DNA from: a virus
Taxonomy: Duplodnaviria > Heunggongvirae > Uroviricota > Caudoviricetes
Reading direction: 5' to 3' (one strand)
Virus record (IMG/VR): IMGVR_UViG_3300022758_000450
Length of the DNA stretch: 5,360 nucleotides
How positions within the stretch are numbered: position 1 is the stretch's first letter; the number at the start of each line of letters is the position of its first letter. Shown piece by piece: positions 117-4,645 of this stretch. Below the pieces are notes generated by a model. That model did no database searches, was not told the origin of the DNA, and saw nothing but the letters and a program-made list of their open reading frames with translations. Position numbers and translations under genes: made by a program.

Positions 117-416
117 CTATTCTTTTTTCTTCCATTCCGATTTATAGTCGAAGGAAGAATGGCAGTTCAGTGGCGCCGGGATGTCCTGGCAATACGCTTC
201 TGTTGCATCATGCATTAACGCTTCAAAAGCAAATTCCTGCGGTACCAGTTGGCTGCAAAGCACCGCATGTTGGGCGACGCTGTAGAAATGTGAAAGATGT
301 CCAGCAAAGCGACAGATATTTGAAAGAGAAACCGCGATATCGTTAATAACGATGTTGTCTTTATCTATCCTGTCATAATAAAAATGCTTCCCGGAAAAAG
401 TTTTAATAAATGACAT
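117..416 (-). CDS. HD-domain phosphohydrolase (YfbR/YfdR-like 5'-deoxynucleotidase family), segment ending at an in-frame TAG
   Basis: Track ORF 117..443 (-). Translation carries the HD-domain metal-binding pattern (AGHLSH, VAQHAV, ALMHDATEAYCQD). Preferred start is ATG at 416 (GGAG 6 nt upstream on the minus strand); the track start at 443 is a GTG with no SD. The same frame stays open past the TAG (117-119) for 35 more codons to tandem TGA-TGA at 6-11. Confidence 0.6.
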   Translation of the reverse strand: MSFIKTFSGKHFYYDRIDKDNIVINDIAVSLSNICRFAGHLSHFYSVAQHAVLCSQLVPQEFAFEALMHDATEAYCQDIPAPLNCHSSFDYKSEWKKKE

Positions 417-540
417 TTTGTTCTCCACGTATATGCACTGCACCGCGCTGAATTCGGGTAAAAGGAAGTCCTCACCGTCCGGCGATTATTGAGTCAATTA
501 CATTTCCATAAATGCCCCCGTAGGGGCGGTTAGTTTCTCC

Positions 541-629
541 ACAAAACAGAGAAGAACACCTGCGGTGGCTGCCGCCCGGATGGATTGGGTTATGAGCCCG
601 TCGTCCGGTGATGCTCTTCTCTGTTTTGT
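541..629. repeat. Perfect 15-bp inverted repeat (ACAAAACAGAGAAGA / TCTTCTCTGTTTTGT) flanking a 59-bp GC-rich core; function unknown
   Basis: Arms 541-555 and 615-629 are exact reverse complements. Lies in a GC-rich stretch (about 472-900) where the track shows only mutually overlapping, low-complexity ORFs on both strands. A GC hairpin (514-527) lies just to the left. Confidence 0.5.
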
Positions 630-929
630 AAAAAGGACGATACCAGCCGGAAGCAAGGGTACAAACTGGTACCGCCAGGACTACACACAGCATAAAGTTG
701 TGGTGCCGGGTGCCTCCCGGTGCCTGGCGAAGGTTGCACACCAGACGGGTGGGTATCCACAGAAGGTCGACTGTCAGCCTCAACCTTAACCCGCGTGCGC
801 TGAGCCGCATTCACCACAACGCTAAGGATTCTCTTTGGTTGAAAATACTTAGCTGTTATGTGCCTGTCTTTTCACCACTTCAGGCTCGGTGGTATCCTTT
901 TAAGCCCGTATACATAAAAGGAAAATCAA

Positions 930-1410: not shown

Positions 1411-1497
1411 GACTCAACGAATCACCCTAGACTTTATATGCCCCAGGTGGCTACTTCGTGGGCGTCCTGCCTGTCCGTGATAGCTTACATTATGTTG

Positions 1498-1731: not shown

Positions 1732-1983
1732 TTACTTTGTAAGTTCTAGAACTCGTTGAGCCAGCCCTTTAAATTGTTCGTTAAAGGCGTCTCTGCTTGA
1801 TTTCATTGTATTTAAGGCATGCCCAAATTGCCCTGAATCGCGAATTTGCTGATCACTGATGGAGAAAACAGGTGTCGCTAGTTGTTGGCTTATTGCGATT
1901 AATGAGTTGAAATCGGAAATATGCGCAAGATCATAGGCTGATAAATCTCCACTGACTGTTGTTTTGTTAATTGCATGTTGCAC
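1732..1983 (-). CDS. Hypothetical small protein (83 aa), distal gene of the ParA-like cassette
   Basis: Track ORF with GTG start at 1983, placed 1 nt after the TAA (1985-1987) that closes the ParA-like reading frame, which suggests coupled translation. Followed by the terminator. No recognisable motif. Confidence 0.5.
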   Translation of the reverse strand: MQHAINKTTVSGDLSAYDLAHISDFNSLIAISQQLATPVFSISDQQIRDSGQFGHALNTMKSSRDAFNEQFKGLAQRVLELTK

Positions 1984-1984
1984 T

Positions 1985-2815
1985 TTATCTCGTGGAATTA
2001 TGCAGGTAATTTTTTTCTAGATTTGGCACTAAGATCGAATCAACAGCATCACGGATAGCTGCCATCCATTTTTCGAAAGATTTTACAGGTGCTCCTTTAC
2101 GCGGCCTGTATCTCTGCTGAATCATACCTAGAAACTGCGGTGCATTTTTTAATTGATTGTGAAGAGTTACCATCATTATTTTCTTTAAATAATGCTAATT
2201 CTTTGTGCCAGCGAGGTATATTTTTTTGAGAGAGAGCGAATTGCTTGCCAGCAAAAAAAGTCTGGAGCTACAGGTACGATAAAATAGTCACTTGACATGA
2301 GAACTACTTCATTTAAACCTCCAACATTAGGGCTGAGATCATAAAGAATGTAATCAATATTATTCTTCATGGCGATTAGCTGTAATATTTTTTGGCAGGT
2401 TCCCTGGTATATTTTCTTGTAGCAGGAATACCAGCAGCAATTTTTTAGAGAAACACTTATCTGTGAATCTAAGTCCGAAACATCTAAATGTCCGGGAAGA
2501 AGCAGAAGGTTTTTCATGCAGTGTAGGGTGTAATTTTCCCGTTTCTTTTTCAAGGTATGCTTCAGGTTGTCCGCCATTAATCAAATATTCTACAATAGGT
2601 CCAAGAGTTAAGTTATCTCTGCTAGAATAAAAAGAATCTAAACCCTCATCAATCTTTTCATAGCCAAGAACCATTCCTGTTAGATTACATTGCGAATCAA
2701 GGTCAACCATCAATACTTTCTTGCCTTCATCCGCAAGTGCCCATCCAAGATTGAAGGTTGTTGTGGTTTTACTTACCCCACCTTTATGATTAAAAAAACA
2801 AATTGATTTTGTCAT
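1985..2815 (-). pseudogene. ParA/Soj/MinD-family P-loop ATPase gene, reading frame broken twice (+1 then -1)
   Basis: Track ORF 2360..2815 gives the N-terminus with deviant Walker A (MTKSICFFNHKGGVSKTTTTFNLGWALADEGKKVLMVDLDSQ). ORF 2185..2577, in another frame, gives the Walker B region (IDYILYDLSPNVGGLNEVVLMSSDYFIVPVAPDFF), closely matching Soj YDYIIIDSPPALGPL...IIPIQCEFF. ORF 1985..2176 is back in the first frame and resembles a ParA C-terminal region. Total span is about 277 codons, typical for Soj-type ParA. AAGGA lies 9 nt upstream of the ATG at 2815. Confidence 0.7.
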
Positions 2816-2984: not shown

Positions 2985-3746
2985 CTAAAGCCGGTTGTAT
3001 TTAATTGATTCGTGTATCAATGCTTTGCCCATAACATAAAGTTGATCTTGGGACTTCTCATCAATGTACCATTTCTCATAGGCTGGATTATCCGAAAGAA
3101 CGGCGAGTTTGTTGCCTTGCATTTGTAGACGTTTAACGTGGAACGTCTTACCATAAACGAAAGAGTAAACACCATCAGTTTGGAAGTTGCGAACAGAAAT
3201 GTCGACAAACAGTCGATCTCCGGAAACTAGAGTAGGGGACATGCTGTCGCCATTTACAGTCATAACTTTAATATCATCTTGAGAACGATTACCGAAAAGA
3301 GAACGGGCATGCTCTGTTGTGAACTCAATGGCGTAGAGCACATCAACATAGTCTGAAAGCATATAGGTCCCAGGTCCTGCGCTAACGCTAAGATCCAAAA
3401 CTTCTATCCTGTATACATCGGGTTTTGTTGGATTGGGGATGCTTGCCATTTCCTTACATCCTTCTCTCTCACCAACACCATATTCTAAATATGAAGCTGA
3501 TACCCCCAGAGCCAATGCAAGTTTATTCATGACAGAGGCACGAGGCTTCGCAGCGCCGATTGTGTATCGCCGCGCCATTTCATATGTAACGCCCACAAGA
3601 CTTTTGAGTTGGGTGACAGAAATTCCCTTGTTTGTCATTAGCTCGTTTAGTCTCTTGGCGAAATCTGGATACTTCTGTTCTTCTACCATAGGTAGAAGAT
3701 TACTCGCATCACATACGCTAGTCATTTCTATTTTAAGTAGTTGCAT
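2985..3746 (-). CDS. cI: CI-type phage repressor: N-terminal HTH (XRE family) plus C-terminal LexA-like S24 autopeptidase domain
   Basis: Track ORF. HTH segment FAKRLNELMTNKGISVTQLKSLVGVTYEMARRY; probable Ala-Gly cleavage site in LSVSAGPG; catalytic Ser in VNGDSMSPTL and Lys in HVKRL. Divergent from the cro-like gene with operators between. Start is ambiguous (ATG at 3746, 3725 or 3689); none has an SD, consistent with a leaderless PRM-type transcript. Confidence 0.88.
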   Translation of the reverse strand: MQLLKIEMTSVCDASNLLPMVEEQKYPDFAKRLNELMTNKGISVTQLKSLVGVTYEMARRYTIGAAKPRASVMNKLALALGVSASYLEYGVGEREGCKEMASIPNPTKPDVYRIEVLDLSVSAGPGTYMLSDYVDVLYAIEFTTEHARSLFGNRSQDDIKVMTVNGDSMSPTLVSGDRLFVDISVRNFQTDGVYSFVYGKTFHVKRLQMQGNKLAVLSDNPAYEKWYIDEKSQDQLYVMGKALIHESIKYNRL

Positions 3747-3787
3747 TTTGCTATTTTAAGTAGCATCATCCCTCTGAATTTCAGAGG
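3728..3787. promoter_or_regulatory. OR region: two identical 13-bp operators (3728-3740, 3751-3763) and a perfect 17-bp palindrome (3771-3787) between the divergent cI and cro starts
   Basis: CTATTTTAAGTAG occurs twice with 23-bp centre-to-centre spacing. Each copy is an imperfect dyad (10 of 13) and carries TAAAAT on the minus strand, a -10-like hexamer a few nt from the cI ATG candidates. CCTCTGAA-T-TTCAGAGG (3771-3787) is a perfect palindrome centred 22 bp from operator 2 and overlaps the cro SD. Confidence 0.6.
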
Positions 3788-3795
3788 AGAAAGGT

Positions 3796-4059
3796 ATGTC
3801 ATCTCAAAACTACACAGAGAAAGCAGTAAAAGCTGCGGGAAAATCTTTATCTGAAGTAGCCCGTCACTTTGGTTTTAAGTCCACTCAATCCGTCGCTAAT
3901 TGGGTAATTAACAATCAAGTCCCGTCAGAACGGGTTTTACAACTTTGTGAGTTGGGAAACTGGTCCGTGACCCCTCATGAACTGCGTCCTGATATTTACC
4001 CCAATCCAAATGATGGATTACCTGAGTGCTATTCAAAAGTTAGCGGTTCAGCTGCGTAA
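3796..4059 (+). CDS. cro: Cro-like small HTH regulator (YdaS-type Cro/CI family)
   Basis: ATG at 3796 with GAGGAG (3784-3789) 6 nt upstream. 87-aa protein with HTH segment KSLSEVARHFGFKSTQSVANWV. Divergent from the repressor gene across the operator region. Confidence 0.8.
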   Translation: MSSQNYTEKAVKAAGKSLSEVARHFGFKSTQSVANWVINNQVPSERVLQLCELGNWSVTPHELRPDIYPNPNDGLPECYSKVSGSAA

Positions 4060-4087
4060 ACGTAACCACAGAAACGAGGAGTTAACC

Positions 4088-4645
4088 GTGGGTAAGCATC
4101 ACTGGAAAGTAGAAAAACAGCCTGAGTGGTACGTGAAAGCAGTCAGAAAAACTATCGCAGCGTTGCCGGGGGGTTACGCTGAAGCTGCTGACTGGCTGGA
4201 CGTAACAGAGAACGCATTATTTAACCGCCTTCGTGCCGATGGCGATCAGATTTTCCCGCTGGGATGGGCAATGATTTTGCAACGTGCTGGTGGAACTCAC
4301 TTCATTGCTGACGCTGTGGCGCAGTCTGCAAATGGCATCTTTGTGTCTCTTCCTGACGTCGAGGATGTGGACAATGCCGATATTAACCAGCGTCTGCTGG
4401 AAGTCATTGAACAGATCGGCAGTTATTCCAGACAGATTCGTTCAGCAATTGAAGACGGTGTAGTGGAACCGCATGAGAAGACAGCAATTAACGACGAGCT
4501 GTATCTCTCAATTTCGAAGCTGCAGGAGCATGCAGCACTTGTCTACAAAATTTTTTGCATTTCAGAAAGTAATGACGCCCGCGAGTGTGCAGCTCCGGGC
4601 GTCGTGGCGTCGATTGCTTCTGGTTGTGGAGAAACTAACGCATGA
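4088..4645 (+). CDS. CII-like / YdaT-family early regulator (185 aa from GTG start)
   Basis: Track ORF 3977..4645. Preferred start is GTG at 4088, same frame, with GAGGAG (4076-4081) 6 nt upstream and no overlap with cro. Position (directly after cro, before the replication gene) and size match the YdaS-YdaT arrangement recalled from Rac-type prophages. Stop TGA overlaps the next ATG (ATGA at 4642-4645). Confidence 0.65.

What the first reader, a model, noticed from the sequence alone, without database searches (positions are those of the whole stretch)
472..900. GC-rich non-coding island with a perfect 15-bp inverted repeat flanking a 59-bp core
Seen in sequence: arms 541-555 and 615-629 are exact reverse complements, which is far beyond chance for a 5-kb window (probability on the order of 1e-3 or less by rough count). 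They sit in a GC-rich stretch where every frame is open but no translation looks protein-like. Other local structure: a GC hairpin at 514-527, CCGGG-N5-CCCGG at 706-720, and a tandem 10-bp near-repeat (CCGGGTGCCT / CCCGGTGCCT, 705-724). The island lies on the leftward early transcript between the first ORF and the HD gene. Candidate roles: a long processing hairpin (RNase III-type, as in the lambda N leader or sib), a small structured RNA, or a miniature inverted-repeat or recombination-site remnant. The sequence alone cannot discriminate.
Basis: seen in the sequence. Interest (0 to 1): 0.6.

Follow-up and report, generated by a model that had tools for sequence, protein, structure and literature searches.

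The report
Prophage sRNA, terminator, conserved leader RNA
The GC-rich "island" is not a gene remnant: read leftward it is a DicF/STnc100-type prophage small RNA with its terminator, followed by an apparently undescribed, widely conserved Y-shaped leader RNA (the inverted repeat) that carries a copy of the initiator-tRNA anticodon hairpin.

Summary

All the signal is on the minus strand, which is the early-left (PL) transcript of an SfV/SfII/mEp460-type lambdoid prophage.

Bases ~822..630 are a small RNA locus:
- a multibranched domain (Rfam STnc100, 37 bits, below the gathering score of 47);
- a single-stranded seed;
- an intrinsic terminator.

This locus is homologous to the experimentally mapped sRNA-17 of E. 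coli K1 and to the dicF-dicB region of Qin and Rac.

The inverted repeat (629..541) starts right after the terminator's U-tract. It is the 20-bp closing helix of a three-way-junction RNA:
- 94% of cells are paired in 31 diverse sequences, with 8 compensatory pairs and a conserved U·G wobble;
- there is one copy per prophage in about 150 loci;
- no reading frame is conserved.

Its near-invariant arm contains CGGGCUCAUAACCC, a 14-nt exact match to the tRNA-fMet anticodon stem-loop.

The most likely function is inferred, not shown: a cis-acting processing and regulatory leader, with the helix acting as an RNase III-type site as in the dicBF operon. The role of the tRNA-like arm is unknown. MITE, decayed-gene, tRNA-gene and put/nut readings were not supported.

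The parts
862..893 (-). Block B: a conserved element that can be drawn as an H-type pseudoknot, ACCAC-CGA-GCCUG-AA-GUGGU-GAAAAGA-CAGGC. Its role is unknown.
   Evidence: 94-96% identical blocks lie in the early-left leaders of Klebsiella phages, Salmonella phages and Rac-SA53. The pseudoknot was drawn by eye. The stems do not vary, so covariation cannot test it.
697..820 (-). Multibranched 5' domain of the sRNA (STnc100-like). The closing helix is GUUGUGGUG (820..812) with CACCACAAC (705..697). The CCGGG-AGGCA-CCCGG hairpin is at 720..706.
   Evidence: Rfam STnc100 scores 37 bits over 842..627, against a gathering score of 47. The closing helix has 5 compensatory positions and the hairpin has 1 across six phage and prophage versions. 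It is homologous to the region upstream of dicB in Qin and of kilR in Rac.
679..696 (-). Single-stranded seed-like segment, UUUAUGCUGUGUGUAGUC.
   Evidence: GCUGUGUGUAGUC is conserved in front of many different terminators. The same seed occurs in the Rac-SA53 element, which scores 41 bits with Rfam DicF.
630..678 (-). Intrinsic (Rho-independent) terminator: hairpin GGCGGUACCAG...CUGGUAUCGUC followed by CUUUUU.
   Evidence: 141 of 144 related loci have a stable hairpin (median -19.6 kcal/mol) 0-4 nt before a run of at least four U. The stems have unrelated sequences. The 3' RACE end of the homologous sRNA-17 maps to this U-tract (PMC7719688).
541..629 (-). P1 is 629..610 with 560..541 (20 bp). 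P2 is 608..576. P3 is 575..562.
   Evidence: Alignment A1 has 31 diverse sequences. 94.3% of cells are paired, against 39-52% when partners are slid, and 8 pairs show compensatory change. Covariance model R1 scores 128.5 bits on the minus strand and 42.9 on the plus strand.
587..600 (-). CGGGCUCAUAACCC: the inner hairpin of P2, identical to the anticodon stem-loop of initiator tRNA-fMet.
   Evidence: 14-nt exact match to K-12 metZ positions 29-42. None of 500 shuffled windows gives a match of 13 nt or more. In the 14 loci retrieved through P1 only, the CAU-centred loop is kept in 13; 12 have CUCAU(A/U)(A/C) and Izhakiella has UUCAUAA.
535..540 (-). Invariant GGAGAA immediately 3' of P1 (Shine-Dalgarno-like).
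   Evidence: Present in every family member. TTGTGGAGAAACTAAC also occurs at 4624-4639 (+), where it is a working ribosome-binding-site context (I4).
514..527 (-). Small GC hairpin (P4) between module D and the next gene.
   Evidence: A hairpin is present at this position in most relatives, with different stem sequences. There is no U-tract on the transcript strand.
1418..1477 (-). Context: Block A, a conserved structured element at the 5' end of the PL transcript.
   Evidence: It is conserved directly downstream of unrelated operator and promoter sequences in many immunity types. One hairpin has 3 compensatory positions.

Best explanation
Bases 472-900 are untranslated leader of the early-left (PL) operon of an SfV/SfII/mEp460-type lambdoid prophage. 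They function as RNA in the leftward (minus-strand) sense and hold two independent modules.

**(1) sRNA locus, ~822/842..630.** This is a prophage small RNA of the STnc100 / PasD / sRNA-17 / long-DicF kind. It has a multibranched domain closed by a covarying helix, a single-stranded seed, and an intrinsic terminator whose U-tract ends at 630.

It starts immediately after that U-tract (A629 follows U630). It is a conserved three-way-junction RNA:
- a 20-bp helix of fixed length;
- a near-invariant arm carrying an initiator-tRNA-like anticodon hairpin;
- a variable arm.

It is followed by GGAGAA and a small hairpin before the first delayed-early gene.

**Proposed mechanism (inferred).** Most transcripts stop at the terminator and yield the sRNA. 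Transcripts that read through carry module D. Its two-turn helix is then cut by RNase III, as happens in the homologous dicBF operon and in the lambda N leader. Cutting would separate the sRNA from the downstream message and set that message's 5' end, and so its stability or translation. The invariant tRNA-fMet-like arm is probably a specific binding site for a protein or the ribosome.

**Shown:** non-coding status, strand, structure, conservation, the terminator, and homology to mapped sRNAs.

**Inferred:** RNase III cleavage and any role for the tRNA-like arm.
For: **Strand and structure**
- Pair counts on 31 diverse sequences: 94.3% of cells paired, against 39-52% when partners are slid. 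Eight pairs show compensatory changes. A U·G wobble is present in 28 of 31 sequences.
- The covariance model scores 128.5 bits on the minus strand and 42.9 on the plus strand.
- P1 has no indels in any of the 31 sequences. In many relatives it has recurrent mismatches near its centre (pair 17/112 unpaired in 23 of 31).

**Non-coding**
- Module lengths run from 104 to 132 nt and differ by amounts that are not multiples of 3.
- No frame stays open in all relatives.
- None of the ORFs matches Pfam.

**Terminator**
- 141 of 144 loci have a hairpin plus U-run, with unrelated stem sequences.

**sRNA identity**
- Rfam STnc100 at 37 bits.
- The closing helix covaries.
- The primers and alignment of sRNA-17 (193 nt; RACE and Northern) map to the equivalent closing helix and U-tract (PMC7719688).
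- The Qin dicF locus has the same build. Its 190-nt form needs RNase III and its 53-nt form needs RNase E.
- Rac-SA53 carries the same seed and scores 41 bits with Rfam DicF.

**Context**
- Module D always lies between the repressor/PL region and the first early-left gene, and that gene differs between phages.
- In Mixta it follows PL directly, with no sRNA in between.

**tRNA-fMet match**
-.
Against: - No transcript ends, cleavage sites or binding data exist for module D. RNase III cleavage rests on helix length and on analogy to the dicBF operon.
- A processing site alone does not explain a near-invariant P2 arm.
- The window's own sRNA scores below the Rfam gathering score for STnc100 (37 against 47). 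Rfam DicF does not hit it at E <= 1.
- No convincing promoter of its own was found for the sRNA. The sRNA-17 authors, by contrast, propose an ArcA-regulated promoter.
- One lineage (Scandinavium) has lost the CAU loop while keeping the rest of the structure.
- Most of alignment A1 was retrieved through a P2 sequence pattern, so the conservation of P2 is partly circular. The P1-anchored control has only 14 loci.
Confidence: 0.55

Rival explanations
1. Module D is mainly a binding or decoy element built around an initiator-tRNA anticodon-arm mimic. One version is a translational operator that engages the 30S P site, MetRS or another tRNA-fMet-recognising factor next to the GGAGAA, in the way the thrS operator mimics tRNA-Thr. 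Another version is a decoy or sensor for tRNA-fMet-specific anticodon nucleases such as the enteric VapC/MvpT.
For: - 14-nt exact match to the tRNA-fMet anticodon stem-loop, including the three G-C pairs. None of 500 shuffles reaches 13 nt.
- The match sits exactly as a hairpin with a 7-nt loop.
- P2 is the most conserved part of the element, including its loops.
- A relative (L122) carries a tRNA-like cassette with another CAU loop in the neighbouring module.
- From my own knowledge, not tested here: VapC of Shigella and Salmonella cleaves tRNA-fMet in the anticodon loop, and these genera host many of these phages.
Against: - Only the three G-C pairs and the loop match. The rest of the arm is not tRNA-like.
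- ARAGORN calls no tRNA in the window or the 32 related loci scanned; the window gives no Rfam tRNA hit at E <= 1, and the only tRNA-model hit in relatives is the sub-threshold L122 cassette (28.7 vs 29 bits).
- Positions 37 and 38 of the loop vary, and Scandinavium lacks CAU.
- There are no binding or cleavage data.
Confidence: 0.2
2. Module D is a processive antitermination RNA for this N-less phage group. It would be either a put-like RNA that modifies RNA polymerase directly, or a nut-like site for an unidentified phage protein.
For: - No N-like gene lies between PL and the first early-left genes in ST64B, mEp460, Stx2a_1447 or LLS.
- The element sits in the leader where lambda has nutL and HK022 has putL.
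- In Mixta it follows PL directly.
Against: - It lies downstream of the strong terminator that has to be passed first.
- There is only one copy per prophage and none in the rightward operon, whereas nut and put sites come as left and right pairs.
- It shows no sequence similarity to the HK022 put region.
- It is a three-way junction with a 20-bp helix, unlike the two adjacent stem-loops of put (PMC9378689).
Confidence: 0.1
3. Module D is excised from read-through transcripts and acts in trans as a stable small RNA.
For: [quoted passage not shown]
- Module D is a compact, very stable fold with a conserved exposed loop.
Against: - It has no terminator or U-tail of its own.
- No RNA species of this kind was found in the papers searched.
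Confidence: 0.08
4. The region is the decayed interior of a protein gene, or encodes a small protein. NCBI's PGAP annotation pipeline calls a frameshifted 'hypothetical protein' here, and the SfII record annotates CDS SfII_35.
For: - ORFs of 52-112 aa are open.
- Annotated CDS or pseudogene in SfII and in an E. coli chromosome.
Against: - No Pfam match.
- Two frames are open at once in most relatives, and no single frame is open in all.
- Indels are not multiples of 3.
- Substitutions are compensatory for RNA pairing rather than synonymous.
Confidence: 0.03
5. The inverted repeat acts at the DNA level, as a MITE, a recombination-site remnant or a protein-binding palindrome.
For: Perfect 15-bp arms.
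Against: - One copy per prophage at a fixed position, with a median of one place per genome.
- Arm spacing varies from about 59 to 87 nt.
- Wobble pairs work on one strand only.
- In most relatives the arms are imperfect at fixed positions.
Confidence: 0.02

Closest known systems
dicBF operon leader and DicF sRNA of prophage Qin (and the equivalent region of Rac)
   Same: - Same position, in the early-left operon of a lambdoid prophage.
- Same build: a structured domain closed by a GUUGUGG/CCACAAC-type helix, then a single-stranded seed and an intrinsic terminator.
- The 5' half of the terminator, UGGCGGUAYCAGUUU, is shared.
- Qin and Rac also carry the STnc100-like module seen in the window.
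[quoted passage not shown]
   Different: - The seed sequence differs from K-12 DicF.
- Rfam DicF does not hit the window at E <= 1.
- The module order is reversed. In the window the STnc100-like domain precedes the seed and terminator; in Qin and Rac it follows them.
- Qin and Rac have no strong module D match. Qin was only searched at E <= 1e-12.
sRNA-17 of E. coli K1 RS218 (Sun et al. 2020, PMC7719688)
   Same: - Same locus in an mEp460-type prophage, upstream of yfdP.
- 193 nt long. By its primers and alignment it runs from just before the closing helix to the terminator U-tract.
- The terminator is nearly identical to the window's.
   Different: - The interior of the structured domain and the seed are a different sequence type (AGCCACUGCUUUGGCGG).
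- The authors did not describe the element downstream of the terminator.
Rfam STnc100 (RF02076), with PasD and EcOnc27
   Same: - A multibranch fold closed by a ..UGGUGAAU../..CACCA.. helix.
- The CACCGGGAGGCACCCGGCACCA hairpin.
- A terminator at the 3' end.
- Prophage-borne.
   Different: - 37 bits against a gathering score of 47.
- Canonical copies lie in the late region, downstream of stx2B or near Q, not in the early-left leader.
RNase III processing hairpins in phage early transcripts (lambda N leader, sib, T7 R1.1). Comparison from my own knowledge.
   Same: An imperfect helix of about 20 bp (two turns) in an early-operon leader, next to a ribosome-binding region.
   Different: - Here the helix closes a three-way junction with an invariant arm.
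- Cleavage has not been shown.
HK022 put RNA (PMC9378689)
   Same: A cis-acting structured RNA in the PL leader of a lambdoid phage that lacks N.
   Different: - No sequence similarity.
- Single copy.
- Different architecture.
- In the window it lies about 850 nt from PL and after a terminator.
Initiator tRNA-fMet anticodon arm, and tRNA-mimic operators such as thrS
   Same: 14-nt identity to the anticodon stem-loop, including the three G-C pairs and the CAU loop, presented as a hairpin.
   Different: - It is not a tRNA.
- No synthetase or ribosome binding has been shown.

Membership tests
Rfam STnc100 (RF02076) | Score at or above the curated gathering threshold (47 bits) | tested here: not met
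   37 bits, E = 1.6e-5, full-length match over 842..627. Relatives score 34-44 bits.
Rfam STnc100 (RF02076) | Multibranch domain closed by a helix, a CCGGG-AGGCA-CCCGG hairpin, and a 3' terminator | tested here: met
   Alignment to the model, the MFE fold, and covariation of the closing helix.
DicF (RF00039) | Match to the DicF covariance model | tested here: not met
   No hit in the window at E <= 1. The Rac-SA53 element with the same seed scores 41.1 bits against a gathering score of 48.
DicF-type operon sRNA | Seed plus intrinsic terminator inside the early-left operon of a lambdoid prophage, preceded by a structured domain | tested here: met
DicF-type operon sRNA | [quoted passage not shown] | not testable with these tools
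   Known only for K-12 DicF.
Intrinsic terminator | GC-rich hairpin immediately followed by a U-tract, conserved as structure | tested here: met
   Window hairpin 676..636 (-17.1 kcal/mol) plus UUUUU. 141 of 144 loci have the same arrangement with unrelated stems. The 3' end of homologous sRNA-17 maps here.
RNase III substrate | About two turns (20 bp or more) of dsRNA | tested here: met
   20-bp P1 with no indels in 31 sequences.
RNase III substrate | Cleavage by RNase III | not testable with these tools
   Needs a comparison with an rnc mutant, or in-vitro cleavage.
put/nut antitermination sites | Copies in both early operons | tested here: not met
   One covariance-model hit per locus and none rightward of the repressor.
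put/nut antitermination sites | Similarity to HK022 put, or boxA/boxB together with an N gene | tested here: not met
   No similarity to HK022. The first ORF after PL has no Pfam match, and inspecting its sequence by eye shows no arginine-rich motif.
tRNA gene or tRNA-like element | Cloverleaf recognised by ARAGORN or the Rfam tRNA model | tested here: not met
   No tRNA called in the window or in the 32 related loci scanned with ARAGORN. Only a 14-nt anticodon-arm match is present.
MITE or transposon remnant | Dispersed multi-copy distribution | tested here: not met
   Median of one place per genome, always in the same prophage context.
Protein-coding gene | A reading frame conserved among homologues | tested here: not met
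Any described RNA family (for module D, 541-629) | Rfam 15 match at E <= 1 | tested here: not met
   The only hit in the window is STnc100, and it ends at 627.

The most novel reading that the evidence does not exclude
Module D is a phage-encoded mimic of the initiator-tRNA anticodon arm, held on a rigid 20-bp stalk. Either it captures a host factor that reads tRNA-fMet (the 30S P site or MetRS) to control early-left gene expression, or it acts as a decoy or sensor for tRNA-fMet-cleaving toxins such as VapC. In the second case it would be a new class of anti-defence or translation-hijacking RNA, present in about half of sequenced E. coli genomes.
Probability: 0.12. Interest if true: 0.85.

Novelty: new variant of a known kind. 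Interest (0 to 1): 0.55.

Why it matters
- **Annotation.** The region is routinely annotated as a hypothetical protein or pseudogene. It is in fact two RNA modules, found in about 2,800 of 5,426 complete E. coli genomes and in Shigella, Salmonella, Klebsiella, Citrobacter, Erwinia and Mixta prophages, including Stx2-converting phages.
- **The sRNA.** The sRNA part connects three literatures that currently treat their RNAs as separate: DicF, STnc100/PasD and sRNA-17. It shows that these RNAs are mosaic cassettes of one leader architecture.
- **The inverted repeat.** The inverted-repeat element does not match any Rfam 15 family, and I found no description of it in the papers searched. Its covariation support is strong and its core is invariant and resembles the initiator tRNA. 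That makes it a well-defined, testable candidate for a new cis-regulatory or decoy RNA controlling early-left genes, including excision and recombination functions.

Tried and rejected
- **HK022 put.** I fetched the genome, located PL-putL-nun, and compared by BLAST and by eye. There is no similarity.
- **tRNA gene.** ARAGORN on the window and 32 loci found none.
- **Second copy in the rightward operon or elsewhere.** The covariance model was run over about 1.5 Mb of loci and found none.
- **K-12 datasets.** CPS-53 has lost the element through a deletion that fuses the O-gene iterons to yfdP, so K-12 data cannot inform.
- **Mini-ORF M-E-K... starting at the 3' end of P1.** The frame and peptide are not conserved among close relatives, and the start codon is ACG in one lineage.
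- **Longer ORF through the element.** No frame is conserved.
- **Alternative hairpin between GGAGAA and the 3' arm of P1.** There is no compensatory change where the arm changes.
- **Own sigma-70 promoter for the sRNA.** AAGACA-17-TATTTT at 870..842 matches only 8 of 12 positions, is not conserved in relatives, and was not flagged by the scan.
- **PasB as a possible match.** It lies in a structural-gene operon and is unrelated.
- **RS218 genome record.** It is not in the collection, so sRNA-17 was mapped from its published primers and alignment instead.
Full report
**1. The window**

The window is the immunity region of an E. coli lambdoid prophage of the SfV/SfII/CPS-53/mEp460 type.

| Feature | Coordinates | Evidence |
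|---|---|---|
| cI-like S24/HTH repressor | 2985-3746 (-) | |
| Cro-like gene | 3796-4059 (+) | |
| CII (CP76) gene | 4088-4645 (+) | |
| O-type iterons | from 5278 | |
| ParA-like gene split over two frames | 2185-2815 (-) | |
| yfdR-like HD gene | starts at 416 (-) | |

Operator-like repeats at 1492-1537 pair with those at 3724-3769 (I1 and D2). PL therefore fires leftward from about 1490.

**2. The observation**

- The 15-nt arms are exact reverse complements.
- The GC hairpin is at 514-527.
- The CCGGG-N5-CCCGG hairpin is at 706-720.
- GC content is 0.52-0.57, against 0.38-0.45 on either side.
- Several overlapping ORFs are open, and none matches Pfam.

The minus strand of 500-930 folds at -175 kcal/mol (z = -5.5). 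The plus strand gives z = -4.3.

**3. Distribution and context**

The 491-nt region matches 2,787 of 5,426 complete E. coli genomes, with a median of one place per genome. It also matches 75 phage records.

In every annotated relative it lies between the repressor/PL region and the first early-left gene. This holds for:
- SfV, SfII, mEp460, Stx2a_1447 and ST64B;
- 118970_sal3, F1055, phiNP, LLS and Eeyore;
- an E. coli chromosome.

Annotators call it nothing, a 'hypothetical protein', or a frameshifted pseudogene.

BLAST shows the region is a mosaic of separately conserved blocks:

| Block | Window coordinates |
|---|---|
| Block A | 1418-1477 |
| Block B | 853-898 |
| STnc100-like domain | ~680-842 |
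| Terminator plus inverted-repeat block | 516-677 |

**4. The sRNA (about 822..630, minus strand)**

*Rfam match.* Rfam gives one hit in the window: STnc100 over 842..627 on the minus strand. It scores 37 bits, below the gathering score of 47, with E = 1.6e-5. Relatives also score below threshold, at 34-44 bits.

*Fold.* The fold is a multibranch domain.
- It is closed by GUUGUGGUG (820..812) paired with CACCACAAC (705..697).
- It contains the CCGGG-AGGCA-CCCGG hairpin (720..706).
- Across six versions (window, ST64B, phiES15, Qin, Rac-SA53 and a Klebsiella phage), the closing helix has five positions with compensatory change and the hairpin has one.

*Seed and terminator.* A conserved single-stranded stretch follows (UUUAUGCUGUGUGUAGUC, 696..679), and then a hairpin plus CUUUUU (678..630). 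In 141 of 144 related loci, a stable hairpin (median -19.6 kcal/mol) sits 0-4 nt before a run of at least four U. The stem sequences are unrelated: GGCGGUACCAG, GUCGGCGUCCGGC, GGCGGUUAUCCAG, UGCCCAUC and GCGGCAUC. This is a covarying intrinsic terminator.

*Link to sRNA-17.* Sun et al. 2020 (PMC7719688) mapped a 193-nt 'sRNA-17' in the mEp460-type prophage of E. coli K1 RS218, using RACE and Northern blot.
- Their full-length primers and alignment start at CGUUGUGGUGAAUGCG and end at GGUACCGCUCUUUU. That runs from just before the closing helix to the terminator U-tract.
- Their Northern probe is in the plus-strand sense of the window, so the RNA it detects runs in the PL sense.
- Replacing the sRNA core raised yfdP about 2^6.6-fold and yfdR about 2^4-fold. 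This fits a cis effect on the downstream operon, but polarity from the inserted cassette cannot be excluded.

*Link to DicF.* In K-12 Qin, a structured domain of the same build (GGUUGUGGC...GCUGCAAC) immediately precedes DicF. A second, STnc100-like module homologous to the window's lies between dicF and dicB.
- DicF exists in two forms. The 190-nt form has a 5' end that depends on RNase III. The 53-nt form depends on RNase E.
- No internal promoter has been detected (bioRxiv 10.1101/2023.04.14.536235, citing Faubladier 1990).
- Rac-SA53 carries the same seed as the window, followed by a terminator that scores 41 bits with Rfam DicF, and then the STnc100-like module upstream of kilR.

*Canonical STnc100.* Canonical STnc100, EcOnc27 and PasD lie in the late region, downstream of stx2B or near Q.

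The window's sRNA is therefore a new member of a known, mosaic family of prophage operon sRNAs. It fails the Rfam thresholds for both STnc100 and DicF.

**5. The inverted repeat ('module D', 629..541, minus strand)**

*Retrieval.* I retrieved 120 IMG/VR loci with a pattern from the core. As a non-circular control, I retrieved 14 loci from GTDB species genomes with a pattern from the 3' arm only. Together with the phage loci these gave 89 unique versions. I aligned 31 representatives.

*Structure.* The structure is a three-way junction.

| Element | Coordinates | Description |
|---|---|---|
| P1 | 629..610 with 560..541 | 20 bp, no indels in any sequence |
| P2 | 608..576 | outer 5 bp, 2 bp, then GGG/CCC with a 7-nt loop |
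| P3 | 575..562 | variable, with insertions of up to about 28 nt |

Single A residues form the junction linkers.

*Pair counts.*
- 94.3% of 1,054 cells are paired, against 39-52% when the 3' partners are slid by 1-3 columns.
- Eight pairs have changes on both sides.
- 49 cells are compensatory, against 15.4 ± 2.9 in shuffles (0 of 500 shuffles reach the observed value).

*Strand.* Pair 25/104 is U·G in 28 of 31 sequences, and other pairs switch to G·U. On the opposite strand these would be A·C mismatches. A covariance model built on this structure scores the window at 128.5 bits on the minus strand and 42.9 on the plus strand.

*The window is the tidy version.* The window's 'perfect' arms are a tidy variant of a helix that, in most relatives, has fixed mismatches. 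Pair 17/112 is unpaired in 23 of 31 sequences, and pair 13/116 in 9 of 31.

*Copy number.* Every locus has exactly one copy. There is none in the rightward operon, and none in HK022, Rac-SA53, phiES15 or K-12 CPS-53, where a deletion removed it. Qin was searched only at E <= 1e-12, so a weak match there is not excluded.

*Not coding.*
- Module lengths (104, 105, 107, 108, 124, 125 and 128-132 nt) differ by amounts that are not multiples of 3.
- Two frames are open at once in most relatives, and no frame is open in all.

*Independent of the sRNA and of the downstream gene.*
- The downstream gene differs between phages: yfdP-like, RdgC-like, yfdR or others.
- In Mixta tenebrionis the element follows the PL operators directly, with no sRNA or terminator in between.

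**6. The tRNA-like arm**

The inner hairpin of P2, CGGGCUCAUAACCC (600..587), is identical to positions 29-42 of K-12 metZ. Those positions are the anticodon stem-loop of initiator tRNA-fMet, including its three G-C pairs and the CAU anticodon.
- None of 500 shuffled windows gives a match of 13 nt or more.
- In the 14 P1-anchored control loci, 12 keep the loop as CUCAU(A/U)(A/C). Izhakiella has UUCAUAA. Scandinavium has an unrelated loop.
- The element is not a tRNA.
- One relative (L122) has a tRNA-like cassette in the neighbouring module. It scores 28.7 bits with the Rfam tRNA model (gathering score 29) and includes another CAU loop.

**7. Mechanism**

*Shown:*
- the element is RNA-level and leftward-sense;
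- it has a conserved structure;
- it directly abuts an intrinsic terminator;
- it precedes GGAGAA, a small hairpin and the first early-left gene.

*Inferred:*
- most transcripts end at the terminator and give the sRNA;
- read-through transcripts carry module D;
- its fixed-length, two-turn helix is an RNase III-type processing site, as in the homologous dicBF operon and, from my own knowledge, the lambda N leader and T7 early RNAs;
- cutting uncouples the sRNA from the message and defines the message's 5' end.

The recurrent central mismatch in P1 is compatible with this but proves nothing. A plain processing site does not explain the invariant P2 arm. That arm most likely binds something specific, and what it binds is open.

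Rival explanations are listed with their own weights: a tRNA-mimic operator or decoy, put/nut-like antitermination, an excised trans-acting RNA, a coding gene, and a DNA-level repeat.

**8. Novelty**

The sRNA is a new member of a known kind. Module D has no Rfam match, and I found no description of it in the papers searched. Overall I rate the finding as a new variant of a known kind: a structured, processed leader of a lambdoid early operon. There is a minority chance that the tRNA-fMet mimic marks something new in kind.

Noticed in passing
window 1418-1477 (minus strand): Block A is a roughly 60-nt element at the very 5' end of the PL transcript. It is conserved directly downstream of unrelated operator and promoter sequences in many immunity types. 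One hairpin shows three compensatory positions. Its position matches that of putL in HK022, and it shares the short strings ACGAAC..GGC and CAGGAUGA with putL. It is a candidate promoter-proximal regulatory or antitermination RNA.
   Followed up: partly
window 862-893 (minus strand); also L016 2510-2545 and L015 2501-2546: Block B can be drawn as an H-type pseudoknot with an A-rich third loop. It is conserved at 89-96% in the early-left leaders of Rac-SA53, Klebsiella phages and Salmonella phages. The stems never vary, so the structure is untested.
   Followed up: partly
window 529-544 (minus strand) and 4624-4639 (plus strand): The 16-nt sequence TTGTGGAGAAACTAAC occurs in the same RNA sense in both early operons. 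On the left it spans the 3' end of P1 and GGAGAA. On the right it covers the end of the CII-like gene and the ribosome-binding site of the next ORF. It may be a module junction or recombination linker.
   Followed up: no
window 1732-2815 (minus strand): A ParA/AAA_31-type ATPase gene lies between OL and the repressor gene. It is split over at least two frames, so it is probably a decayed moron. The low-GC stretch at 1500-1700 has strong GC skew.
   Followed up: partly
window 117-443 (minus strand): The yfdR-like HD gene stops at 117. Full-length homologues (537 bp) would run off the left end of the window. The alignment to SfV has a roughly 10-bp length difference, so this copy is probably frameshifted.
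   Followed up: no
L154 (K-12 Qin) 3950-4090; L016 (Rac-SA53) 2173-2362: The dicF-dicB and terminator-kilR spacers of Qin and Rac hold an STnc100-like structured module (34-44 bits). It is closed by a helix of about 15-17 bp and lies just upstream of the cell-division-inhibitor genes. I am not aware of any annotation of it in K-12.
   Followed up: partly
L016 (Rac-SA53) 2352-2406: A DicF paralogue (41 bits, below the gathering score of 48) has a different seed, AUUGCUGUGUGUAGUC. The same seed occurs in the window and in many Enterobacterales prophages, so its targets may be shared.
   Followed up: no
L122 3220-3344, and the leaders of L148, L151, L138, L008 and L009: In some relatives the cassette between GUUGUGG and CCACAAC is tRNA-like (Rfam tRNA 28.7 bits; a CAU-type loop). 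Perfect T-arm-like hairpins (GUCCG-UUCAAUU-CGGAC, CUGG-UUCGAUU-CCAG) lie upstream. ARAGORN calls no tRNA. The closing helix may derive from a tRNA acceptor stem.
   Followed up: partly
terminator loops of L006, L042, L139, L148 and L151 (equivalent to window ~650-665): Long-loop versions of the terminator carry a strong Shine-Dalgarno sequence (AGGAGG) and an AUG or GUG inside the loop. The short frame that follows runs through the 3' half of the stem. This could couple translation to read-through. It is absent from the window's short-loop version.
   Followed up: no
L004, L005 and L006, about 5650-5920: Rfam isrK and C4 antisense RNA, both above their gathering scores, lie next to the antirepressor gene in mEp460, Stx2a_1447 and ST64B. 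These are expected P1/P7-type immunity RNAs. They are not present in the window.
   Followed up: no
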